This document shows, piece by piece, positions 12,601-56,952 of a DNA stretch of 64,000 bases. The stretch comes from Nitrospinales bacterium (lineage in GTDB: Bacteria; Nitrospinota; Nitrospinia; Nitrospinales; VA-1). The stretch lies in NCBI GenBank assembly GCA_047610985.1, contig JBLFWU010000008.1, forward strand, positions 7,025-71,024, read 5' to 3'. The translations under genes and the position numbers were made by a program. The stretch's first letter is position 1. The number at the start of each line of letters is the position of its first letter. The notes under the pieces were generated by a model. The model was not told where the DNA came from, did not search any database, and worked only from the letters and a program-made list of their open reading frames with translations.

Positions 12601-12847
12601 GATGGCTCCAGAGTATGAAAATAGTTATTCCAATGTAATTGTATCTTTATTTCTCAATTAAAATAGACATTTTATTTTAAAAAAATATAACTGCTATGTT
12701 GTAAAGATATCCTTCGTGATCAATATTCACATGTCGGAACGCCTTAAATTAAGAGCTTATTAAGTCTATGGTTCCTGAAATTCAGGTAGAATGCAAAGAG
12801 AAAAAATTGGAGCCAACTAAAACACAACAAGCTCGGTTTTCTTGCAA

Positions 12848-13813
12848 ATGATTAGAATAATTTCCATCATCTTACTGGTTAATGTTTTTCTGATAGGTTC
12901 TTCACTTAATCCAGTCAGGGCAAAAGAAATATCTGATTGGGGAAGGATAAATCCGAAGCTTAAAAGGGTTTTGCCTTTAAAAAGTACTGGAAACCCTGAT
13001 GATGAAAATGAATGCCTTCTTTGCCATAAAAAATATATCAGAGCATTTGGAAAAACAATTCACGCTAAAATATTTGTTTCCCGAAAAGGAAAACTTTTAG
13101 GGAGTGCTTGTGAAACCTGCCATGGGCCGATGGTCAGGCACTTACGAGGTAAAACTCGTAAAGAAAGAAACTCTTCAGTTGTCTCCTTTAAATCAATAAG
13201 CCAGAAAAAGAAAGATTTTATTTGTCTTCAATGTCACGATGGGGGATCGAATGACTATTGGCAGGGTAGCTTGCATGAAATGTCGGATGTCACATGTATT
13301 GATTGCCATTATATATTGAAAAAGAGAAGTAAACGCGGACCTTATATAAGTGAAAACCCGAATAGAACATGCTTCCAATGTCATAGAGGGGTAAGAGCAA
13401 AATTTCAAAGGGCATCTCACATGCCAGAAAGAGAAGGAAAGGTTCTATGTAGCAATTGTCACGATGCCCATGGAGGGCCAGGTGATAGTCTTCTAAAACG
13501 ACCTACGGTTAATGAAACCTGCTATCAATGCCATCAGGAAAAGCGTGGTCCAAATATCTGGGAACACCCGCCGGTTCGAGAAAACTGTTCCAACTGCCAC
13601 GATCCTCATGGATCCAACTTCAAGGCGCTTTTAAAATTAAAGCCACCCTATCTTTGTCAGCAATGCCATATGAATGAATTTCATCCTAGTTCTATTTATG
13701 AGGGAAGTGATCTTGCTAATAATGAAGAGCGTATTATTGAAAAATCTTGTTTAAATTGTCATAGTGTGATCCATGGTTCGAGTCATCCATCAGGAGCGAG
13801 ATTCCAAAGGTAA
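12848..13813 (+). CDS. Periplasmic decaheme c-type cytochrome, MtrA/DmsE/PioA/MtoA-like
   Basis: Ten CxxCH motifs: CLLCH, CETCH, CLQCH, CIDCH, CFQCH, CSNCH, CYQCH, CSNCH, CQQCH, CLNCH. N-terminal signal peptide, about 320 aa, C-terminus CLNCHSVIHGSSHPSG. An alternative TTG start lies at 12842. Confidence 0.85.
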   Translation: MIRIISIILLVNVFLIGSSLNPVRAKEISDWGRINPKLKRVLPLKSTGNPDDENECLLCHKKYIRAFGKTIHAKIFVSRKGKLLGSACETCHGPMVRHLRGKTRKERNSSVVSFKSISQKKKDFICLQCHDGGSNDYWQGSLHEMSDVTCIDCHYILKKRSKRGPYISENPNRTCFQCHRGVRAKFQRASHMPEREGKVLCSNCHDAHGGPGDSLLKRPTVNETCYQCHQEKRGPNIWEHPPVRENCSNCHDPHGSNFKALLKLKPPYLCQQCHMNEFHPSSIYEGSDLANNEERIIEKSCLNCHSVIHGSSHPSGARFQR

Positions 13814-13844
13814 TTTGCCGACACTTGCATAGGGTTTTATTTTT

Positions 13845-16142
13845 ATGAGATCAATTAAAATCCTGAATTTAGTTCCAACTGTTTTTTTTCTCTTTCTCCT
13901 CACGGGTATTTCTCATTCGCAGGAAAATTTGCAGAGTATTGTTCCAAAAATCCCTGTCCAAAAAGGAGGGTTGGAATCCGTCTTGCTTGATGGATTGGAA
14001 AAAGACCAAGACTGGGTGGAAGAAGGATTAACTGGGAATTATAGTATGGGCGGTGTTGGGGCGGTTTTAAGCAATCAGTCTTCCAGGCTCATGAAATTTA
14101 ATGGGATGAAGAATGATTCCGGATATTTTCATGGTAATGCCGACCTTTCTTATCATCGAGGCTCTTATTTTGCGAATTTTTTAGCAGAAGATATCGGATT
14201 TGAAAACCGGAATCTTCTTTTAGATTTCGGGAAATACGATGATTATAAACTCACGGCCAGCTTCAGTCAGAGCTCCCAACTTTTGACGGATAATAGCAAG
14301 ACTCCCTTGGAAGGGTTGGGTGGAAGTAATTTTACTCTTCCCACAGGTTTTGTTACAGGCCCGAGTGGGGCGACCATATCAGTTGCAGGGGTAAAGGACT
14401 CGGACTTGAAAATAGACGGTAGAGATACTACAGTATTTGGGTTTTTAAAATCAGTCGGGAAAAATACGTTTGGCTTGAACTACAAAAGAGAAACAAAAAA
14501 TGGCTCCAGATCGTTGGGAGCGGTTGTGGGCACCAACGGTGGAAATGCAAGAAGCATCGTATTGCCAGAAACATTTGATCAAACTACCAATGAGATGACT
14601 GCGAGTTTTTTACATGTTGATGAAAACAGCCAGCTTAAAGTCGAGTACTTTCTTTCCCTGTTTGACAATCGAATAGAATCGGTAACTTTTCAAAGTCCTT
14701 ATTCCGGAGATATCGATTTAAGCGTCGGCGGGGTAGTCACGGCCCCCGGTGCAGGGCTTATTTCAAGGGCTCCGGATAATAGTTATCACCGGTTCAGCGC
14801 ATCGGGTCGCTGGAACTTATCAAGAACCGCCAGGGTTTCCGCTGTTATGGAATATGGATTGATGTCGCAGGATGATAAATTGTTCGCCTTTGCATTGGGT
14901 ACCAGTACCGATCTTCTTCCCCGCCAATCAGCGGAAGCAAAAACACACAGCCTCCATTTTAGTCTCAATGCTTCTGCCCGACCGGTGAAAAATCTAAGTG
15001 TGAGTACCCATTACCGGCATTACCAAACTATCAACGATACGCCCAGCACTTTGTTTTTAGCTGTTGTCAATGACACACAGGGTCAGGTTGCTGGAAATAG
15101 CGCAAGGGCTCTGATCAGCCAACCTTATGATACGACTCAGGATCAGATGAAGCTGGATGCTTCATATAGGGTTTTCAAGGCGACTCATTTTAAGCTGGGG
15201 TATGAAGTTGAACTCATGCAACGCAGTCACCGGGCAGTTGAAGAGTCTTGGGAAAATACATTTAAAGGCAGCATCCGGTCCACCTATATCCCTAATACCA
15301 GTATCAACCTTAAAGGCTCCTTTGCAAAAAAAGTTGCCGATGAATACGATGCCTTTCAAATATTCTCTGACCGACATACAGCTTCTTTTGTAGCAGGTTC
15401 TTCAGGATTTGATTCGCTTCCGGAGTTACGAAGGCTGGATGTTGCCAACCGGGATAGATCAAAAATGGGTGCTAACATCTCGTGGTTCCCTTCAGATTTT
15501 TATACCTTTGGAATCAATTACCAATATCAGGAAGACGATCACCCGGAATCGCCGATGGGATTAAGAACCCGTCGCAATCAAAATGTAACATTTGATGCCA
15601 ACTATTCTCCGAGTGATACGCAATCAATTTTTATTTTCTACACTTTTTCGAAAATGGATGCCGAGCAAAATGGCAGAGACCATAATCAATTTGCTGCAGG
15701 CTCAGCAAACGATGTGACCCGAAACTGGCGTGTGGATCATGACGACAAAACCCATACTATAGGCTTGGGATCACGTACCAAGTTCATGGAAAACCGATTG
15801 TCCTTTAACATTGACTATAGCTTTACGCAAAGTATCAGTAATACTACCTTTGCTGCGGGATCCAATGCCGCTGTAGCCAACCCTACTGAAATGCCCAACC
15901 TTGGTACGGTAAGGCATAGTTTTGAAACAATAGGGGAGTATAAAATAAATGAAAACTTGAGTTGGGGGATCAGTTATTTATATGAAAATTATAAGGAAGA
16001 TGATTTCGCGACGGATAATTTCGACCCAGGTTCAGTATTTGATACCGGTACTATAGCCAGTGTGATTCCACTTACCGGTTCTAATCAAGACTACAATGGC
16101 CATATTTTTATGGTGTTCGCTTCCTACCAGTTAGGGAATTAA
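13845..16142 (+). CDS. Outer-membrane beta-barrel protein, MtrB/PioB-like (decaheme-associated porin)
   Basis: The 765-aa protein has a signal peptide (LLTGISHSQE). Composition is rich in Ser/Thr/Asn/Gly/Tyr with alternating-strand character. It starts 32 nt after the decaheme cytochrome gene, matching the size and gene order of MtrB/PioB/MtoB. Confidence 0.6.
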   Translation: MRSIKILNLVPTVFFLFLLTGISHSQENLQSIVPKIPVQKGGLESVLLDGLEKDQDWVEEGLTGNYSMGGVGAVLSNQSSRLMKFNGMKNDSGYFHGNADLSYHRGSYFANFLAEDIGFENRNLLLDFGKYDDYKLTASFSQSSQLLTDNSKTPLEGLGGSNFTLPTGFVTGPSGATISVAGVKDSDLKIDGRDTTVFGFLKSVGKNTFGLNYKRETKNGSRSLGAVVGTNGGNARSIVLPETFDQTTNEMTASFLHVDENSQLKVEYFLSLFDNRIESVTFQSPYSGDIDLSVGGVVTAPGAGLISRAPDNSYHRFSASGRWNLSRTARVSAVMEYGLMSQDDKLFAFALGTSTDLLPRQSAEAKTHSLHFSLNASARPVKNLSVSTHYRHYQTINDTPSTLFLAVVNDTQGQVAGNSARALISQPYDTTQDQMKLDASYRVFKATHFKLGYEVELMQRSHRAVEESWENTFKGSIRSTYIPNTSINLKGSFAKKVADEYDAFQIFSDRHTASFVAGSSGFDSLPELRRLDVANRDRSKMGANISWFPSDFYTFGINYQYQEDDHPESPMGLRTRRNQNVTFDANYSPSDTQSIFIFYTFSKMDAEQNGRDHNQFAAGSANDVTRNWRVDHDDKTHTIGLGSRTKFMENRLSFNIDYSFTQSISNTTFAAGSNAAVANPTEMPNLGTVRHSFETIGEYKINENLSWGISYLYENYKEDDFATDNFDPGSVFDTGTIASVIPLTGSNQDYNGHIFMVFASYQLGN

Positions 16143-26365: not shown

Positions 26366-26612
26366 CGTTGAAGCTAAGTTTTAAGGGCATAATCTTGATG
26401 CCAACTCGATGCTTCTTTTCCTTTTATAGTGAGTAATGTTGGTGGACTGTAGTCAAAGAGACTATGGTATTTGTAGGATTAGCGGGTATTGACCAATTCC
26501 CAATACGCCAGCGAGCAAGGCTATATAAATCAATGGTATTTTGTTTTGTATACTTTCTAATCGATGCCCCTGAAAGCCTTAATTGACACTCGCTAGCCCA
26601 ACCACTCCCAAA

Positions 26613-26648
26613 CTTTTCCACAGGTTGTTAACAATTTTTGTGGAAAAG
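26613..26648. promoter_or_regulatory. Inverted pair of DnaA-box-like 9-mers within a 36-bp imperfect palindrome
   Basis: TTTTCCACA at 26614-26622 (+) and TGTGGAAAA at 26639-26647, which is TTTTCCACA on the minus strand. The 10-bp arms cttttccaca/tgtggaaaag flank the palindromic ttgttaacaa. Confidence 0.55.
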
Positions 26649-27016
26649 AATTTGCACGACTATCCCCTCTGTCAATGCCTTGTGGGACAAGGCTATCTAT
26701 ACCAATATGTTTGAAAGGCTCTATTTTTAGCCTTGAAAGGCGGGTGCAGGCGAGAACTACCCTTATCTAGAGTGAATTCATTGCAAAGAAAAGTAGAATT
26801 GCGGCGGCCTTTATATGTCATGAAAATACCCTGCGTCAAAATTCCAGTGGGACTTTAGTGCTGGTTTTAAGCCTTTATATGGAAAGAATTACTTTAATAA
26901 ATATGAAGGGTTTTTTGACTCGCGAGTTTAGTGGATATCCGGCTGCCAAGAATTTGTTACCAATTTTAGCCTTTAATGCTCGGCACAATCAGCGGGGCGC
27001 ACTCTAGAAAAAAAAA

Positions 27017-27025
27017 TGTGAAAAA
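27017..27025 (-). promoter_or_regulatory. DnaA-box-like 9-mer
   Basis: TGTGAAAAA on the plus strand equals TTTTTCACA on the minus strand, matching TTWTNCACA. Confidence 0.45.
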
Positions 27026-27150
27026 CTGTTAAAACTCGAATGGTCTGTCAATAAATAAATGTCAGATGGAGTAAAATACCATAAGTAGTTGAAATAATGT
27101 ATTTTATCGTTATTTTGATATGACAGGTTTTCATCGTTCTCAATTTCAAG
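27026..27150. other. AT-rich tract (possible DNA unwinding element)
   Basis: Visibly the most AT-rich stretch of the gap (e.g. gtcaataaataaatgtcag, gaaataatgtattttatcgttattttgatatg). It lies between DnaA-box-like sites. Confidence 0.35.
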
Positions 27151-27177
27151 TTTTTATCCAGCAGGGTGAAATGAAGT

Positions 27178-27197
27178 TTATTCACAAGTTATTCACA
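27178..27197 (+). promoter_or_regulatory. Tandem DnaA-box-like 9-mers
   Basis: TTATTCACA (27178-27186), then ag, then TTATTCACA (27189-27197). Each is one mismatch from TTATCCACA and matches TTWTNCACA. Confidence 0.55.
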
Positions 27198-27295
27198 GTT
27201 TGAAATTTTGTTAAGACTTGTTTATTTGTTCTTTATTGAACTGGCGAGGGAATTAATTTTGGTGTGGAGAGCCGTCAAAGTGCTTGCGCTATATA

Positions 27296-28213: not shown

Positions 28214-28328
28214 AGAACTCCCATGCCCTCTAGCGAGGGAGGTAAATAGAAAACCCCTCAATCGAGGAGCTTGTTGACAACCGTTGGATATTAAGAGTTT
28301 TGACCTTTTGAGTCCAGCGTTATGTTGG

Positions 28329-28841
28329 CTATTTTTCCAAAAGGCGGGGCATCAGCTCTACCAGATTGCAAGGCTTGTGCGTGTTATCGAGTTGATGGAC
28401 AAGGATCTGGTCCCATCCATCTTTGCAAGCCCCTGTAGAACCCGGCAAGGCGAACAGAAAAGTGCCGTTAGTCACACCCGCGGTGCAACGTGACTGTAGT
28501 GTAGAGGTTTTGATACTCTGGTAGCTGAGCATGCGAAACAATTCGCCAAATCCTGGAATGGCCTTATCATATAACTCTTCGAAGGCTTCTGGCGTTATGT
28601 CGCGACCAGTGACACCGGTTCCGCCTGTGGAAATCACGACATCTACTTCTGGACTGGCGATCCATTTCTTTAGCTGCTCCTGAACCAAATCTATTTCATC
28701 CTTGATAATCTTTTTCTCGGCCAGATGGTGTCCAGCATCCTTAATTCGGTCTACCAGCACTTGACCCGATTTGTCATCTGCTTCCGTTCTTGTATCAGAT
28801 ACGGTTAACACTGCAATATTCACACATTTTTTTTCACTCAC
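28329..28841 (-). CDS. moaB: Molybdenum cofactor biosynthesis protein B (MoaB/MogA family)
   Basis: LTVSDTR, TGGTGVTGRDITPEA, GFGELFR, PGSTGA and PCN motifs are all present; 170 aa. Confidence 0.85.
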   Translation of the reverse strand: MSEKKCVNIAVLTVSDTRTEADDKSGQVLVDRIKDAGHHLAEKKIIKDEIDLVQEQLKKWIASPEVDVVISTGGTGVTGRDITPEAFEELYDKAIPGFGELFRMLSYQSIKTSTLQSRCTAGVTNGTFLFALPGSTGACKDGWDQILVHQLDNTHKPCNLVELMPRLLEK

Positions 28842-29770: not shown

Positions 29771-30118
29771 ATGAAAAAGATGTTTATTGCGATTCCATTG
29801 GTCCTGATGGGAATGTTTTTTGCTTCGACCGCTCTGGCCCATGACGATGAACATGGAAAGGGTGGCCAAGGTATGTACGAAGAGGGTAGCGGAGGATCAG
29901 CTATGGAAATGGATCGTAAATCCCGTGCGATGTCTCATGAATATAAAGAAGATCATGGCGGCGGGGATCATTCTAAAGAACATTATGAAAAGAAGTACGG
30001 TAAGTACGAGCATGAAAAAAAGGACCACATGAAAGAAGAGGGCAGTAGTATGAAAGACGAAGCCATGAAGATGAAAGAAATGGAACAAAAACGCATGGAT
30101 GAAGGAAGCAAAATGTAA
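29771..30118 (+). CDS. Secreted His/Met/Glu/Lys-rich low-complexity protein (putative periplasmic metal-binding protein)
   Basis: Signal peptide ending ALAHDDEH. The mature part is dominated by H, M, E, K, G and D (HEYKEDHGGGDHSKEHYEKKYGKYEHEKKDHMKEEGSSMKDEAMKMKEME). GGAG RBS upstream and a terminator downstream. Confidence 0.6.
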   Translation: MKKMFIAIPLVLMGMFFASTALAHDDEHGKGGQGMYEEGSGGSAMEMDRKSRAMSHEYKEDHGGGDHSKEHYEKKYGKYEHEKKDHMKEEGSSMKDEAMKMKEMEQKRMDEGSKM

Positions 30119-30207
30119 CCCACTAACGTGGGAGGCTATAGGTCAGGACGTTTGGTGGCGAAACTGAATCTATAAGCTTCTGGGGAAATCGATTGTGAAA
30201 ATATAAG

Positions 30208-30236
30208 CCCTCTCCTGTTTAGGAGGGGGTTTTTTA
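30208..30236 (+). terminator. Rho-independent terminator after the His-rich gene
   Basis: Stem ccctctcct / aggaggggg with loop gttt, followed by a T-run at 30230-30235. Confidence 0.75.
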
Positions 30237-30331
30237 TTGCCTCCAGTTTGCCATGCCGAGCCGTCACTCTGGGCTTGTCGACGGGTGAAGCACCTGAAGT
30301 TACCTTTAATCTCCCCCCTGATAAGGGGGAT

Positions 30332-30668
30332 TGAGGGGGGTTCCTGATAAATGTTGTTTACAACTATTTGGAAATATTTTTGGGAGTTGGGAACATTGTG
30401 ATGAAAACTAAGTCATTCTTATAAAAAACGTGGCTTCACTTCTAGAGTTTTTTGGGTGTTTTATGCCCAAGAGGTATAAGGAGGAAGCCTTGGGAGATAT
30501 ATATGAAACTCTCAAGGAAATGAATTCGAATGAGTGTTCAAAATTTACCGTTAAGCATGTTTCATCATTCAAAATAGTTTGTTTGATTTTAAGTGCCTTG
30601 CGAATTCGCTGGAGTGATTTTGTGGATTCTGAAAAAGAGCGCAATAGGTAAAAAGGCAACCCCCCTCA
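30332..30668. repeat. 337-bp segment bounded by an 11-bp perfect inverted repeat (tgaggggggtt / aacccccctca)
   Basis: IR arms at 30332-30342 and 30658-30668. They enclose one small ORF (30430-30651). A G/C hairpin at 30312-30330 lies just outside. Confidence 0.4.
30430..30651 (+). CDS. Hypothetical small protein with C-terminal hydrophobic helix (weak call)
   Basis: 73 aa from GTG, or 62 aa from ATG 30463 (MPKRYKEEALGDIYETLKEM...). No clear RBS. An equally long antisense ORF exists (30408-30659). Confidence 0.3.
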   Translation: MASLLEFFGCFMPKRYKEEALGDIYETLKEMNSNECSKFTVKHVSSFKIVCLILSALRIRWSDFVDSEKERNR

Positions 30669-30717
30669 GTCCCTCTTGTTAGGGTGGAGGTCGCAGCTTC
30701 CTCATCCGTGGTTAACT

Positions 30718-43921: not shown

Positions 43922-44100
43922 GGAAAGCCAGTAGGTTTCTTGGCAGGGGAGGCAATACTTGGCGAATCTGGAGTAAAAGGCTTGACGAGACCTATTTTCG
44001 TTTTTGGGAATAGACTTGTTGCCCCCCACGGCGAGTGGGTGATAAAATAGAGTCAATATATACAAATAGAAGTTAATCGTTTTTTACAGGAATATCAGTT

Positions 44101-49787: not shown

Positions 49788-49909
49788 AAAATCCCCCTTT
49801 CGGTTTCAAAAAAACGAATAAATTTTTATTTCTTGTACTTATCTAACCTTAAACCTCAGCTATTCCCTTGTCAAGGGGACCTTTGTAAAAGCATGAAAAT
49901 GGAGGATAA

Positions 49910-50032: not shown

Positions 50033-50380
50033 ATGGAATTTTTTTCCAATATTCTAGCTTCTCCGTCCCTCGTCTGGGTCGTGACGGCAATGGGGTTTTA
50101 TTTGGTCAATATATTTTTGGGCCTGTTTATTGCCTTTCAGAAAAACACGGTCGATACTCGGAAAATACATAAATACCTTTTTTACTCCATCGCGTTCTGT
50201 TTGATTTACTTCCTCATTATGAATCAGACGCATAATGAGAACACGTTGATAGATTATGCGGTGGTTCTATACATGGTTGCACTTGTCCCCTTCAGCAAAC
50301 GTTGGGATATTTTAGTGCATGCTCTGGTTGCGGTGATTGGGCTGATACTTATGCCTTTGCTCATCGTCCTGCAAACCTAA
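50033..50380 (+). CDS. Hypothetical small integral membrane protein (about 4 TM helices)
   Basis: The 115-aa protein has four hydrophobic segments. No recognisable family. Confidence 0.5.
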   Translation: MEFFSNILASPSLVWVVTAMGFYLVNIFLGLFIAFQKNTVDTRKIHKYLFYSIAFCLIYFLIMNQTHNENTLIDYAVVLYMVALVPFSKRWDILVHALVAVIGLILMPLLIVLQT

Positions 50381-50398
50381 GAGACCACTCGGCGTGGA

Positions 50399-50450
50399 GC
50401 CAGAAGGTCTATTCTCTTAAAGTGAAACTATTGTCTTCAAGCTTCTGGAT
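50399..50450 (+). repeat. Left arm of a 52-bp imperfect inverted repeat flanking the ferredoxin gene
   Basis: gccagaaggtctattctcttaaagtgaaactattgtcttcaagcttctggat matches the reverse complement of 51062-51113 at 45/52 positions (40/45 in the core, 50406-50450). Confidence 0.85.
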
Positions 50451-50611
50451 AGCATTGCTTCTTCTGACAGGAGGTTGACTCTTTGCATTATAGCGAGTGA
50501 TCACAGCAAGCTAGGTGATCCCGGTATTTGGTGTCATGTTGATTTAGTAACAACATCACATAATCATGCAGGCACATAAGGATAGATTTAAGGAGAGTAT
50601 ACTAGCGAACG

Positions 50612-50917
50612 CTAGTCTGCGATGGCGGCTTTGACGGTGATGTCGCCGTAGACTTTTACCCGGCAACCGAGTTTTTGATGGTCTTCGAGTTTGTGGATTT
50701 TTTCAAAGAAAGTACGCCCGTTGACGTTTTCCATGGGCTCAACTTCTACCACGCATTTGGCGCATAAACCAGTTCCTCGACAATTGAGGAATTTGTTGAA
50801 GCCTTTATAAATCTCGGCATCGTTATAAAGAGCCGCCTGCCGTAAATTGGCACCATAACCTGCTTTAAATTCAAAAGTTTCATCGGTTTCTGTGTTGATG
50901 ACTTTTATTTTTGGCAT
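50612..50917 (-). CDS. 2Fe-2S ferredoxin-like protein
   Basis: The 101-aa protein has cysteine pattern C-x5-C-x2-C-x29-C (LNCRGTGLCAKC...LGCRV), close to plant-type 2Fe-2S spacing. Confidence 0.6.
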   Translation of the reverse strand: MPKIKVINTETDETFEFKAGYGANLRQAALYNDAEIYKGFNKFLNCRGTGLCAKCVVEVEPMENVNGRTFFEKIHKLEDHQKLGCRVKVYGDITVKAAIAD

Positions 50918-51061
50918 GATAACCCTTTAGATGTTTAGGTTTCGAGAGCGTCATTAATGCCCGATTAACCGGACAATGTCAATCCCTAATTCTTTAAGTT
51001 GACGGAGTTAATTTGTACTCTGAGCATCCCCCTTGTCAGAGGGAGATCATTGAAGCTCAAC

Positions 51062-51113
51062 ATCTAGAAGCTTGAAGGCAATAGTTTTGCTATAAGAGAA
51101 TAGACCTATTGGC
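51062..51113 (-). repeat. Right arm of the 52-bp imperfect inverted repeat flanking the ferredoxin gene
   Basis: atctagaagcttgaaggcaatagttttgctataagagaatagacctattggc is the reverse complement of the left arm with 7 mismatches. The hairpin at 51026-51047 lies just inside it. Confidence 0.85.
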
Positions 51114-51131
51114 CCGCGGGGGCCTACCCCG

Positions 51132-52949
51132 CTAAATGGAATAATTATGTCCCATTAGTATCTTCTTTTCTTTTAGAAAGTCCTGAATTTTGGTCGATGC
51201 CATTTTTGCATCTTGAGCTTCATCTAAAGACAGGGTGATATCGGGTTCGCCCGTGGGTTGCGAGGCGACTTGTATTTCTATCACCTGGTAAGGGTTCGCC
51301 AGCAGTCTGAGGTCTTCCTGATCTTCTTTGTGGAAAGCGTTGGATGTGGAAATTACCACATGCCCGGCATCGAGAAACAGTTTTGCCACCTCTCCCAGCC
51401 GCCTTGCTGACTCATCTTCAACAGTGGAATTGCTTAAATCAGCCGAGACACCCAGATTCACATTTCTGCGATCTAAAAGGTAGCTCTGGAAATTGTTCTC
51501 AAAAAGATTATGCTCAAGAGTTCTTGCCAAGGGGCCTTTTCCTGATCCCGGTTCGCCGGTGATGAGGATCAATGCGGCACGGTGCCCATTTCGATAAGCG
51601 CGTTCTTCTGGTTTGATGTCGCTTTTTATCCAGTTGAAATCACGGTTACGAACCTCATCTCTGAGTTTGTCTTCTTTAGTAATCGGATTGTAGGTGGTGA
51701 TGATTCCACCACCGCAGACATCGTATTCATCGACCAATACAAAACGTCCCGTACTCGCGATTGATCCAAAAAGATCGAAAGCCACCGGAGATCTCGTTTT
51801 CAGTGTCAGTTCCGCGACATCATTTTTTGCTATGTAGTCTTGATTGCTTAATGTCTCAAGAGTGGAGGCATCGATGGCTTTTTTAAATTCATGGACTTCG
51901 CATTCCACTTCCTGCGTGTTCAGCTTGATTGTGAATTTGCGGCCTTTTTCCAGATTGCGTTTTCCCATCCAGAAAACATTGGCATCAAAAGTTGTGGAAA
52001 CGATAGGTAACTCGTCCATCAAAGTACAAACATCTCCACGCTCGACAAAAATTTGTTCATCCAAAGTGAACCCAATGGATTCCGAAGAGGTTGCTACGTT
52101 GGGTTGTTCGGGAACGCTCCAGGCTTCGATGGTTTTAACGACGGCTTGTTTGCTTGAAGGTGAGAAGATAACACGGTCTCCTACCTTGAGCTTACCTGAT
52201 TCCACACGCCCGGCAATGATTCTGCGTTCGTCAAATTTATAGACGTCTTGAACGGGAAAGCGAAAGGGAAGATGATCGGGTCTCGGTTTTTTCTCGAACT
52301 GGTCAAGCATATTTAAAACCGTGGGGCCTTTGTACCAGGGCATTTCATCTTTCAGTTTGGCAATATTGACACCTAACTTTGCTGAGACGGGAATAAACTC
52401 TCTTGCTTCAACACCTAATGATTCTAAAAATTTGGAGTACTCCGCTTTGATTTTGGAATACACTTTTTCGTCGTAATCCACTAAGTCCATTTTGTTGATG
52501 ACCACGGCCACCTGTGTGAGACCCAGCAGTTTAAGAATGTAGCCGTGTCGGCGAGATTGTTCTTGCACCCCTTCTTTGGCATCGATGAGAAGAAGCGCGG
52601 CTTCTGCATCGGCAGCACCGGTCACCATATTTTTCAGGAACTCCTTATGTCCCGGAGCATCGATGATGACGTATTTTCTTTTTGGGGTATGAAAAAATAT
52701 TTGCGAGGTATCGATGGTGATACCTTGTTCCTGTTCTTCTTGCAATGCGTCTAGTAGAAAGGCAAACTCGAAAGTTTTTCCTTGCTGGGCGCAGATGTCT
52801 TTGATGAAGTCGAGTTTCCCTTCAGGGAGGCTCCCCGTATCCGAGAGCAGACGGCCTACTAAAGTAGACTTACCGTGATCCACATGACCTACGATGACCA
52901 TCCGCATCAAGCGGCTGGAAAGTTCTTGTGCGTTTCCGTTATTGCCCAT
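51132..52949 (-). CDS. cysN: Sulfate adenylyltransferase subunit 1 (CysN GTPase) fused to a degenerate APS-kinase-like C-terminal domain
   Basis: GTPase motifs [18 protein letters not shown]. The C-terminal roughly 160 aa align to CysC but with altered key motifs ([16 protein letters not shown]). Confidence 0.85.
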
Positions 52950-56824: not shown

Positions 56825-56952
56825 CAAGGTCAGCGGGGTTACCCCGCGGTCAATAGTCAAAGATTTTTGAGGCGAACGATTTTCGTTGCGCTTCTATATA
56901 AGTTTACTCTATTTTTTTCAGACGGGGTAGTAGGCCTTGATATTTCCCGCGC

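What the first reader, a model, noticed from the sequence alone, without database searches (positions are those of the whole stretch)
50399..51113. Ferredoxin gene bracketed by 52-bp inverted repeats, each placed about 18 nt past the stop codon of a convergent flanking gene
Positions 50399-50450 and 51062-51113 are reverse complements of each other at 45/52 positions (40/45 in the core). Weaker similarity continues inward (tctgacagg at 50463-50471 versus tctgacaagg on the complement of 51030-51039).

The arms enclose only the 101-aa 2Fe-2S ferredoxin-like gene (50612-50917, minus strand) and its unusually long flanks of 161 and 144 bp.

The placement is symmetrical. The left arm begins 18 nt after the stop of the plus-strand membrane-protein gene, with the conserved core at 25 nt. 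The right arm ends 18 nt before the stop of the minus-strand cysN(C) gene, again with the core at 25 nt. Both convergent transcripts would therefore carry the same-sense element in their 3' UTRs.

Competing explanations:
- A pair of MITE/REP-like elements or terminal repeats that delivered the ferredoxin gene as cargo.
- An invertible segment.
- A long duplex in a cysN-fdx read-through transcript that loops out the ferredoxin mRNA for RNase III-type processing, as happens with rRNA precursors.
- A shared 3'-UTR element or sRNA.

A possible partial third copy of the outer end (gggaatagacttgttgcc) lies at 44006-44023.
Basis: seen in the sequence. Interest (0 to 1): 0.65.

Follow-up and report, generated by a model that had tools for sequence, protein, structure and literature searches.

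The report
Two dispersed-repeat copies flank ferredoxin gene
The 52-bp inverted repeat around the ferredoxin gene is real, but it is the conserved core of two oppositely oriented copies of a roughly 100-nt intergenic repeat that occurs at least six times in this 64-kb stretch of an uncultured marine Nitrospinaceae genome, and nothing indicates that it moves or flips the gene.

Summary
Positions 50399-50450 and 51062-51113 are 45/52 complementary, and this is the longest inverted repeat in the window.

The ferredoxin gene (fdx) is not cargo. The order cysS-DUF2851-cysD-cysNC-fdx is kept across Nitrospinaceae that lack the repeat.

Each arm is the core of a roughly 100-nt element built as hairpin, 52-nt core, spacer, hairpin. 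Profile searches with a leave-one-locus-out control find four more diverged copies in the window, after moaB, after a 115-aa ORF, upstream of cysS and upstream of moeB.

The equal 18-nt offsets are explained by the first hairpin of each element, which abuts the stop codon.

The two fdx cores were about 94-96% identical when this clade arose. Since then they have diverged independently with no compensatory changes. One lineage deleted the cysN-side arm and kept the other at 51/52. Every assembly shows the same orientation. No recombinase or transposase lies among the ~56 ORFs scanned (of 60 called).

Each core is more conserved (92%) than four-fold degenerate sites (76%), so each copy probably has a sequence-specific role of its own.

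Verdict: a new REP/BIME-like intergenic repeat family, of modest interest.

The parts
50399..50450 (+). Left arm: the 52-nt core of the element that follows the membrane-protein gene.
   Evidence: It is orthologous to copies in L014 (48/52) and L016/L017 (51/52).
50381..50478 (+). Full left element. Hairpin 1 (type B, CCAC-TCGGC-GTGG) at 50385-50397, core at 50399-50450, weak hairpin 2 (GCTTCTT-CTGAC-AGGAGGT, with G.U pairs) at 50457-50475.
   Evidence: Family profile hits over 50382-50478.
51062..51113 (-). Right arm: the 52-nt core of the element that follows cysNC.
   Evidence: It is orthologous to copies in L014 (48/52) and L018 (about 85%, two indels).
51025..51132 (-). Full right element. 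Hairpin 1 (type A, GCGGGG-TAGGC-CCCCGC) at 51132-51116, which includes the G of the TAG stop. Core at 51113-51062. Hairpin 2 (ATCTCCC-TCTGACAA-GGGGGAT) at 51047-51026.
50612..50917 (-). 101-aa 2Fe-2S ferredoxin-like gene. It is ancestral at this position, directly downstream of cysNC.
   Evidence: Weak Pfam Fer2 hit. Homologues are named 2Fe-2S proteins in Nitrospinaceae. Synteny is shown.
50953..50982 (-). fdx's own conserved promoter-like site: TTGACA (50982-50977), 17 nt, CATTAAT (50959-50953). It lies inside the repeat bracket.
   Evidence: The same motif sits at the same distance from the ATG in L004, L005, L006, L012, L013, L014, L016-L019.
50033..50380 (+). 115-aa predicted membrane protein, convergent with fdx. 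Its stop abuts the left element.
51132..52949 (-). cysNC (sulfate adenylyltransferase large subunit fused to APS kinase). Its stop abuts the right element.
28221..28330 (-). Family copy 3. It starts at the stop of a moaB-like gene (28841..28329) and ends at the start of an rluD-like gene.
   Evidence: Arm-only profile gives E 0.046, and 0 of 150 shuffled windows reach its score. Left out of the model, it scores 25.9 bits, E 2.4e-7. The copy at the same site in L025-L027 carries ACCACTCGGC and CCAATAGGTC.
30119..30235 (+). Probable family copy 4. It starts 1 nt after the stop of the 115-aa ORF 29771..30118. Hairpin 1 is CCCAC-TAAC-GTGGG. Hairpin 2 is CCCTCTCC-TGTTTA-GGAGGGGG followed by TTTTTT, an intrinsic-terminator shape.
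   Evidence: Left out of the model it scores only 7.8 bits (E 0.12), although it is the best hit outside the training loci. This is the weakest member.
43938..44040 (-). Family copy 5, between an aminotransferase gene and a ThiF/MoeB-rhodanese gene and antisense to both.
56829..56934 (+). Family copy 6, in the spacer between the TPR gene and cysS and antisense to both. Hairpin 1 is type A (GCGGGG-TTA-CCCCGC).
   Evidence: E 6.4e-4; left out: 17.2 bits, E 1.4e-4. An orthologous copy is in L014.

Best explanation
The inverted repeat is a by-product of two neighbouring members of a lineage-specific dispersed intergenic repeat family.

**The element.** One unit is about 95-115 nt. It consists of a short G+C hairpin, a 52-nt sequence-conserved core (G[C/G]C[A/T]ANAGGTC ... 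GAAAC ... AAGCTTCTGGAT) with no consistent fold, a variable spacer, and a C-rich/G-rich hairpin.

**The arrangement at fdx.** One copy fills the 3' flank of the membrane gene on the plus strand. The other fills the cysNC-fdx spacer on the minus strand. Because those two genes converge on fdx, the copies face each other. Because hairpin 1 abuts each stop codon, both cores begin 18 nt after a stop.

**History.** The two cores shared a recent common origin on the stem of the clade that contains the window, L014, L016/17 and L018. The origin was either gene conversion between two older copies or copying of one core. The ancestral arms were about 94-96% identical, while their hairpin 1 sequences belong to two different subtypes. 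Since then the arms have evolved as independent single-copy elements.

**Function.** The arms neither mobilise nor invert fdx, and they are not maintained for pairing with each other. Each core is under purifying selection. Most likely each copy acts alone as a sequence-specific site, for example a protein-binding site on DNA or in a 3' UTR, flanked by stabilising or terminating hairpins.

**Shown:** the repeat, the family, the ancestral position of fdx, the timing, the independent decay, the loss of one arm, the single orientation, and the sequence constraint.

**Inferred:** the copying mechanism and the molecular function.
For: **1. The repeat is real**.

**2. It belongs to a family.**
- A profile built from the other loci finds both fdx arms at E 9e-6 and 2e-5. 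Their scores are 21.6 and 20.4; the best of 150 dinucleotide-shuffled windows scores 13.0.
- Left-out copies are recovered at E 2.4e-7 (moaB) and 1.4e-4 (cysS-upstream).
- The blocks are colinear and the hairpin types are shared between unrelated loci.

**3. fdx is ancestral here.**
- cysD-cysNC-fdx synteny holds in relatives at 65-95% ferredoxin identity.
- The sister clade (L012, L013, L019) and the outgroups have short spacers without arms.

**4. The arms decay independently.**
- Arm substitutions among the window, L014 and L016 fall at positions 9, 15, 22, 25, 26, 36 and 49.
- All lower complementarity, except possibly position 36, whose direction is ambiguous. None is compensatory.

**5. 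One arm can be lost.** L016/L017 lost the whole cysN-side spacer, so that the cysN TGA stop overlaps the fdx -35 box. They keep the other arm at 51/52.

**6. The cores are constrained.** Between the window and L014 the arms are 96/104 identical.
- Four-fold degenerate sites are 338/444 identical (Fisher p 1.4e-4).
- Adjacent non-coding DNA is 218/285 identical (p 2.6e-4).

**7. The fdx pair is exceptional.** Core identity is 87% for this pair against 35-69% between other copies.

**8. No inversion or transposition machinery in the window.** No recombinase or transposase was found among the ~56 ORFs scanned of the 60 called.

**9. One orientation** in all assemblies.
Against: - Only 64 kb of this genome could be searched. 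The genome-wide copy number is extrapolated, not counted.
- Exact-pattern scans of 185,579 species genomes and of JGI metagenomes found the two core halves only at the fdx locus. Any other copies must therefore be as diverged as those in the window.
- The orf115 copy is not significant by sequence alone.
- No terminal inverted repeats, target-site duplications or transposase were found, so no copying mechanism is demonstrated.
- No family member was detected in more distant Nitrospinaceae loci.
- Strong sequence constraint on the cores is unusual for selfish repeats and leaves room for a specific function that I did not identify.
- Gene conversion cannot be distinguished from two near-simultaneous insertions.
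Confidence: 0.6

Rival explanations
1. The element is a functional RNA or protein-binding module rather than a selfish repeat. Each roughly 100-nt copy would be a cis-acting 3'-UTR or 5'-leader element, or a small RNA, recognised through its conserved core. The copies might mark a set of sulfur and molybdenum-cofactor genes. The inverted repeat at fdx would then simply be two such modules.
For: - The cores are more conserved than four-fold degenerate sites.
- Hairpin 2 is more stable on the element's sense strand in 8 of 10 copies, because of G.U pairs.
- Four copies begin 0-4 nt after a stop codon, and one ends in a canonical terminator.
- Five of the six sulfur- or Moco-related genes in the window (cysN, fdx, cysS, moaB, moeB-like) adjoin a copy.
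Against: - No consensus secondary structure was found, and core folds are no better than shuffles.
- There is no Rfam match.
- Two copies are antisense to both neighbouring genes.
- The gene association is a post hoc category, and both the copies and the genes are clustered.
- Six copies in 64 kb is far denser than known regulons or sRNA families.
Confidence: 0.15
2. The two arms work as a pair of operators. A protein bound at both would loop the 660 bp that hold fdx and its promoter, or the two sites would insulate fdx from read-through on either side.
For: - Both arms are under sequence constraint.
- They bracket the fdx promoter and gene.
- Each core contains two 14-nt near-repeats, CTATTCTCTTAAAG and CTATTGTCTTCAAG (read directly from the sequence).
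Against: - L016/L017 do without the upstream arm and keep the fdx promoter and gene intact.
- The same core occurs at four unrelated loci as a single copy.
- No regulator gene is adjacent.
Confidence: 0.08
3. The arms form a long duplex in a cysDN-fdx read-through transcript, or in the antisense read-through from the membrane gene. That duplex would be cut by RNase III to release or destroy fdx mRNA.
For: - The arms pair in the minimum-energy fold of the 751-nt RNA on both strands, with z-scores of -8.5 and -10.9.
- All five transition differences between the window's arms give G.U pairs on the plus strand (read directly from the arm sequences).
Against: - There are no compensatory changes. 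In L014, two of three transitions give A.C mismatches on that same strand.
- Complementarity has only decayed since the common ancestor.
- One lineage lost one arm and retained the other at 51/52.
- fdx has its own conserved promoter downstream of the upstream arm, so its normal mRNA contains only one arm.
Confidence: 0.07
4. The 611-bp interior is an invertible segment, flipped by recombination between the arms.
For: Inverted repeats bracket a promoter-plus-gene unit. The ancestral arms were nearly identical.
Against: - The orientation is the same in three same-strain contigs from different samples and in L014, L016, L017 and L018.
- No recombinase was found among the ~56 ORFs scanned of the 60 called.
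- The present arms share at most 15 bp of uninterrupted identity. From general knowledge, this is below the 20-30 bp usually needed for efficient RecA recombination.
- Inversion would not obviously change expression, because fdx carries its own promoter.
Confidence: 0.03
5. The arms are the ends of a mobile cassette (a mobile insertion cassette or composite element) that delivered fdx.
For: Imperfect inverted repeats flank a single gene.
Against: - fdx sits in the same place and orientation, with the same promoter, in relatives that lack the arms, across the family.
- The arms appeared around a gene that was already there.
- There are no target-site duplications.
Confidence: 0.01

Closest known systems
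REP/BIME elements of enterobacteria, and RIME elements of rhizobia (intergenic mosaic elements)
   Same: - Short, non-coding and confined to intergenic spacers, many per genome.
- Built as a mosaic of hairpins separated by conserved linker motifs.
- Often sit directly after stop codons and in either orientation.
- Neighbouring copies create inverted repeats.
   Different: - There is no sequence similarity to them.
- The best-conserved part here is the unstructured 52-nt linker, not the palindromes.
- The two hairpins are unlike each other.
- No RAYT-type transposase could be looked for outside the window.
- Copies are far more diverged from one another (35-69%) than typical REPs, yet conserved at orthologous sites.
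MITEs, such as Correia/NEMIS (Neisseria), RUP and BOX (Streptococcus), and ERIC/IRU
   Same: - About 100 nt, dispersed and intergenic, with presence varying by lineage.
- Can be co-transcribed in UTRs and can provide hairpins or terminators.
   Different: Terminal inverted repeats and target-site duplications were looked for and not found. There are no near-identical young copies apart from the fdx pair.
Invertons (invertible promoters or genes bracketed by inverted repeats)
   Same: Inverted repeats of tens of bp bracket a few hundred bp that contain a promoter.
   Different: Only one orientation is seen, there is no invertase nearby, and the repeats are members of a dispersed family that are decaying independently.
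Mobile insertion cassettes and pdif modules (a gene flanked by inverted recombination sites)
   Same: A single passenger-sized gene sits between imperfect inverted repeats.
   Different: The gene predates the repeats at this locus. No Xer-like 11-6-11 site structure was seen by eye.
rRNA-type processing stems (RNase III substrates formed by distant flanks)
   Same: A read-through RNA could form a duplex of 52 to about 90 bp enclosing the gene.
   Different: There is no covariation, one arm is dispensable, and the gene has its own promoter inside the bracket.

Membership tests
Dispersed intergenic repeat (REP/BIME/RIME-like mosaic element) | Several copies at unrelated intergenic loci in one genome | tested here: met
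   Six copies in 64 kb. Leave-one-locus-out profile E-values range from 2e-7 to 1e-4 for four loci. The fifth is weak at E 0.12.
Dispersed intergenic repeat (REP/BIME/RIME-like mosaic element) | Mosaic of palindromic units and conserved linkers, with no coding capacity | tested here: met
   The layout is hairpin 1 (two subtypes), a 52-nt core, a spacer and hairpin 2. No reading frame is conserved across copies.
Dispersed intergenic repeat (REP/BIME/RIME-like mosaic element) | Associated transposase (RAYT or IS200/IS605-like) in the genome | not testable with these tools
   None was found among the ~56 ORFs scanned of the 60 called in the window. The rest of the genome is not available.
Dispersed intergenic repeat (REP/BIME/RIME-like mosaic element) | High genome-wide copy number | not testable with these tools
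   Only the window and short loci are held. Exact-pattern scans found the fdx locus only, as expected if other copies are 35-69% identical.
MITE | Terminal inverted repeats | tested here: not met
   The ends of all six copies align no better than shuffled sequence.
MITE | Target-site duplication | tested here: not met
   There are no direct repeats at the boundaries. The boundaries are approximate, however.
Inverton (invertible DNA segment) | Both orientations present in a population | tested here: not met
   One orientation in L001-L003, L014/L015, L016, L017 and L018. Raw reads were not examined.
Inverton (invertible DNA segment) | Site-specific recombinase encoded nearby | tested here: not met
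   No integrase or invertase domains were found among the ~56 ORFs scanned of the 60 called in the window.
Mobile cassette or composite transposon carrying fdx | The gene is absent from the site in relatives that lack the repeats | tested here: not met
   fdx is present at the same site without repeats in L004, L005, L006-L011, L012, L013, L019 and L020-L024.
Long-range RNA processing stem | Compensatory substitutions keep the two arms complementary | tested here: not met
   About eight substitutions occurred in three lineages. None is compensatory, and all but possibly one lower complementarity.
Long-range RNA processing stem | Both arms are co-transcribed and cleaved | not testable with these tools
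   No transcript data are available. The fold prediction shows only that pairing is possible.
Known RNA families (Rfam 15) | Match to a curated covariance model | tested here: not met
   No hit at gathering score across the window. Only chance-level snoRNA hits with E above 4 appear in 50300-51200.

The most novel reading that the evidence does not exclude
The roughly 100-nt element is not junk. It would be a selectively maintained cis-element of a new kind, either a protein-binding site or an RNA module. Its 52-nt core is held by purifying selection at each locus, and in marine Nitrospinaceae it marks genes of sulfate assimilation and molybdenum-cofactor or sulfur-carrier synthesis (cysDN-fdx, cysS, moaB, moeB-like). 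The fdx gene, bracketed by two copies, would be its most strongly targeted gene.
Probability: 0.12. Interest if true: 0.6.

Novelty: new member of a known kind. Interest (0 to 1): 0.32.

Why it matters
Striking inverted repeats around a gene are easily read as transposons, invertons or RNA processing stems. Here comparative data show a plainer cause: two copies of a small dispersed repeat that happen to face each other.

The useful residue is a previously undescribed intergenic repeat family in uncultured marine nitrite oxidisers. Its cores are more conserved than synonymous sites. That makes it a candidate functional element, for example in mRNA 3'-end formation or as a protein-binding site. 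It can be tested with existing ocean metatranscriptomes.

The family also gives a marker for strain-level structural variation, because one arm is deleted in one lineage.

Tried and rejected
**Database searches that found nothing**
- Rfam at gathering score on the whole window, and at E up to 10 on the locus.
- Exact-pattern scans with each half of the core: GTDB species genomes gave only L014, JGI metagenomes gave only three contigs of the same locus, and viral contigs gave none. This first looked like evidence against a dispersed family. It turned out to reflect the divergence of the other copies.
- BLAST of the element against plasmid and phage collections.
- A literature search for Nitrospina intergenic repeats found nothing relevant.

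**Structure tests that failed**
- Each arm folded alone is no better than shuffles.
- RNAalifold on six arm copies gives -4.6 kcal/mol, and on twelve family copies gives no structure at all.
- A small central hairpin (GCGA-loop-TTGC) seemed to covary between copies. Core folds are not better than shuffled sequence and are inconsistent between orthologues, so I dropped it.

**Mobile-element signatures**
- Terminal inverted repeats and target-site duplications were not found.

**Ideas checked by eye and dropped**
- An outward-facing promoter in the arm (TTGAAG-N18-GAGAAT) is not conserved in other copies.
- A small ORF through the arm is rejected because the frames are not conserved between arms.
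- Resemblance to an IHF site or a parS half-site does not fit.
- Apparent homology between the right arm and the sister clade's cysN-fdx spacer (TTCTCTT...ATAGCAA) is rejected. That spacer instead aligns with the sequence downstream of hairpin 2.
- A sense-after-stop-codon rule for the family is rejected, because two of four copies in co-directional spacers are antisense.

**Not attempted**
- A covariance model of the family. MAFFT does not place the two hairpin-1 subtypes in the same columns, and I could not supply a hand alignment.
Full report
**1. The observation**

The window has a 52-nt inverted repeat, 50399-50450 against 51062-51113. It is 87% complementary (45/52) with 611 nt between the arms. 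It is the longest inverted repeat in the 64 kb. BLAST gives E about 3.5e-11 for the partner arm and nothing else below 0.3.

The arms enclose a 101-aa 2Fe-2S ferredoxin-like gene (fdx, 50612-50917, minus strand). Each arm lies exactly 18 nt from a stop codon. On one side is a 115-aa membrane-protein gene (plus strand). On the other is cysNC (minus strand).

Neither arm folds better than shuffled sequence on its own. There is no Rfam match.

**2. Organism and synteny**

The ferredoxin's homologues are all from Nitrospinaceae/Nitrospinota metagenome-assembled genomes. Three contigs from different samples are 99.97% identical to the window where checked. They carry both arms in the same orientation.

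The gene order cysS-DUF2851-cysD-cysNC-fdx, usually followed by a convergent small membrane gene, an SDR and HtrA, is kept in relatives down to 68-71% ferredoxin identity. These include 3.4-Mb genomes. fdx also has its own conserved promoter-like site, TTGACA-17 nt-CATTAAT, at a fixed distance from the ATG in every lineage read.

fdx is therefore an old resident of this site and not cargo.

**3. Who has the arms**

An fdx nucleotide tree gives ((((window, L014), L016/17), L018), ((L012, L013), L019)), L004, L005, L006.

| Lineage | cysN-side (right) arm | Membrane-side (left) arm |
|---|---|---|
| Window | present | present |
| L014 (GTDB representative, MAG DUZG01000017) | present; the repeat is 53 nt at 89% | present |
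| L018 | present, more diverged, two indels | unknown (contig ends) |
| L016/L017 | absent | present, 51/52 identical to the window |
| Sister clade (L012, L013, L019) | absent; spacer 2-38 nt before the -35 box | absent in L012 (93-nt spacer); not covered in L013 and L019 |
| L004, L005 | absent | absent (40-54 nt spacers) |

In L016/L017 the whole cysN-fdx spacer is missing, so the cysN TGA stop overlaps the fdx -35 box. Because L018 and the outgroups have a spacer there, this is a secondary deletion.

Both arms therefore appeared on the stem of one clade, around a gene that was already there.

**4. How the arms have evolved**

Comparing the five 52-nt arms of the window, L014 and L016 gives this picture:
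- Positions 5-6 are GA in all left arms and AT in all right arms. This is an old difference.
- All other variable positions (9, 15, 22, 25, 26, 36, 49) are lineage-specific changes in one arm.
- The inferred ancestral arms were 49-50/52 identical.
- Every later change lowers complementarity, with position 36 ambiguous. None is compensatory.

Orthologous arms are 92.3% identical between the window and L014, and 98% between the window and L016, with no indels. By comparison:
- Adjacent non-coding DNA is 72-79% identical, with indels (Fisher p 2.6e-4).
- Four-fold degenerate sites of cysD, cysN, fdx and the membrane gene are 76.1% identical (338/444; Fisher p 1.4e-4).

Each core is thus under purifying selection for its sequence. 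The pair is not under selection for complementarity.

**5. The arms are cores of a dispersed element**

- A profile of the arms alone picked up a 69%-identical ungapped match at 28310-28261 (E 0.046). None of 150 dinucleotide-shuffled windows reached that score. The match begins 16-18 nt after the stop of a moaB-like gene and in the same sense.
- The copy at the same site in relatives L025-L027 carries ACCACTCGGC, which is the left element's hairpin, and CCAATAGGTC, which is the right arm's start.
- Broader profiles then found three more copies. One is in the TPR-cysS spacer (56829-56934, E 6.4e-4). One is directly after the 115-aa ORF 29771..30118. One is at 44040-43938.
- A leave-one-locus-out test gave the following. 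The fdx arms are found by a model of the other loci at E 9e-6 and 2e-5. The moaB copy scores E 2.4e-7 and the cysS-upstream copy E 1.4e-4. The orf115 copy scores only E 0.12, although it is the top hit outside the training loci. Shuffled windows reach at most 12-15 bits.
Alone that match is at chance level. In context it is part of a full copy with a CCCAC-TCGCC-GTGGG hairpin.

The unit has four parts:
1. Hairpin 1, in two subtypes. Type A is GCGGGG/CCCCGC (cysN and cysS-upstream copies). Type B is (C)CCAC/GTGG(G) (membrane, orf115, 44-kb and L025 moaB copies).
2. The 52-nt core.
3. A variable spacer.
4. A C-rich/G-rich hairpin 2. In the orf115 copy this is a canonical terminator followed by a T-run.

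Other properties of the family:
- Orientation is not tied to transcription. In spacers between co-directional genes, two copies are sense and two antisense.
- No terminal inverted repeats or target-site duplications were found.
- No recombinase or transposase was found among the ~56 ORFs scanned of the 60 called.
- No copy was detected in more distant Nitrospinaceae loci.
- There is no similarity to plasmid or phage records.

**6. Why the fdx pair is so similar**

Cores at different loci are 35-69% identical, whereas the fdx pair is 87% identical and was about 95% identical ancestrally. The pair combines a type-A and a type-B hairpin 1 with almost the same core. The similarity starts sharply at the boundary between hairpin 1 and the core.

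That pattern fits gene conversion between two neighbouring inverted copies, or copying of one core next to a different hairpin. I cannot separate these possibilities, because the sister clade has no detectable copy at either site.

**7. Rival readings**

- **Long-range RNA duplex.** A transcript spanning both arms would pair them (z -8.5 and -10.9), so an RNase III substrate is physically possible. Against it are the lack of covariation, the loss of one arm in L016/17 with the other retained, and the fdx promoter lying inside the bracket.
- **Inversion.** There is one orientation everywhere, no recombinase in the window, and at most 15 bp of uninterrupted identity between the arms.
- **Cargo.** Excluded by synteny.
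- **A functional module.** This remains open. The cores are constrained. Hairpin 2 is more stable on the sense strand in 8 of 10 copies because of G.U pairs. Five of the six sulfur- or Moco-related genes in the window adjoin a copy. That association is post hoc, and both genes and copies are clustered. No consensus fold exists for the core.

**8. Verdict**

The most eye-catching interpretations are not supported.

What is there is a new, lineage-specific, REP/BIME/RIME-like intergenic repeat family. Two of its members face each other across an ancestral ferredoxin gene. It is a new member of a known kind and of modest interest. The unresolved point is why the cores are more conserved than synonymous sites.

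Noticed in passing
window 12842-16142: A multihaem c-type cytochrome (paired CXXCH, 323 aa) sits next to a 765-aa MtrB/PioB-type outer-membrane porin (Pfam E 8e-117). This is a module typical of extracellular electron transfer or iron oxidation, found here in a Nitrospinaceae genome.
   Followed up: no
window 50612-50917: The ferredoxin-like protein falls just below the Pfam Fer2 cut-off (20.4 against 21 bits). Its best solved-structure matches are chloroplast NDH subunit PnsB3 (E 5e-8). Its fixed position after cysDN(C) across Nitrospinaceae suggests a role in sulfate assimilation.
   Followed up: partly
L016 and L017 (cysN-fdx junction); L019: In L016/L017 a clean deletion fuses the end of cysN to the fdx promoter, so the TGA stop overlaps the TTGACA -35 box. 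L019 has only 2 nt between the cysN stop and the -35 box. Its fdx has also lost its stop codon and runs on to 130 aa.
   Followed up: partly
window 30311-30342 and 30658-30689: This is the second-best inverted repeat in the window (32 nt, 84%). It is made of hairpin-2-like modules (TCCCCCCTGATAAGGGGGA type) and brackets about 315 nt that hold a 62-aa ORF with a good Shine-Dalgarno sequence. A similar hairpin (CCCTTGTCAAGGGGA) lies at 49865.
   Followed up: partly
window 26366-27295: A 930-nt stretch has no ORF longer than 65 aa, 37.6% G+C (window 43.2%), and no Rfam or tRNA hit. A gap of similar length lies at the same place in relative L028, but only 34 nt are conserved.
   Followed up: partly
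window 28221-28330, 43938-44040, 50381-51132, 56829-56934: Five of the six sulfur- or molybdenum-cofactor-related genes in the window (cysN, fdx, cysS, moaB-like, ThiF/MoeB-rhodanese) adjoin a copy of the repeat. My rough post hoc hypergeometric estimate is P about 5e-4. Genes and copies are clustered, so this could be coincidence.
   Followed up: partly
L006-L010 (fdx downstream): In the lineage at 79% ferredoxin identity, the small convergent membrane gene is replaced by an 899-aa KAP-family P-loop NTPase gene.
   Followed up: no
window 50451-50611: The fdx 3' flank evolves at about the neutral rate (74% identity, with indels), except for two conserved islands. These are CGTTCGCTAGT.TACTCTCCTTAA directly after the stop and AAATCAACATGACAC about 70 nt further on. 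Their role is unknown. They may relate to the fdx terminator.
   Followed up: no
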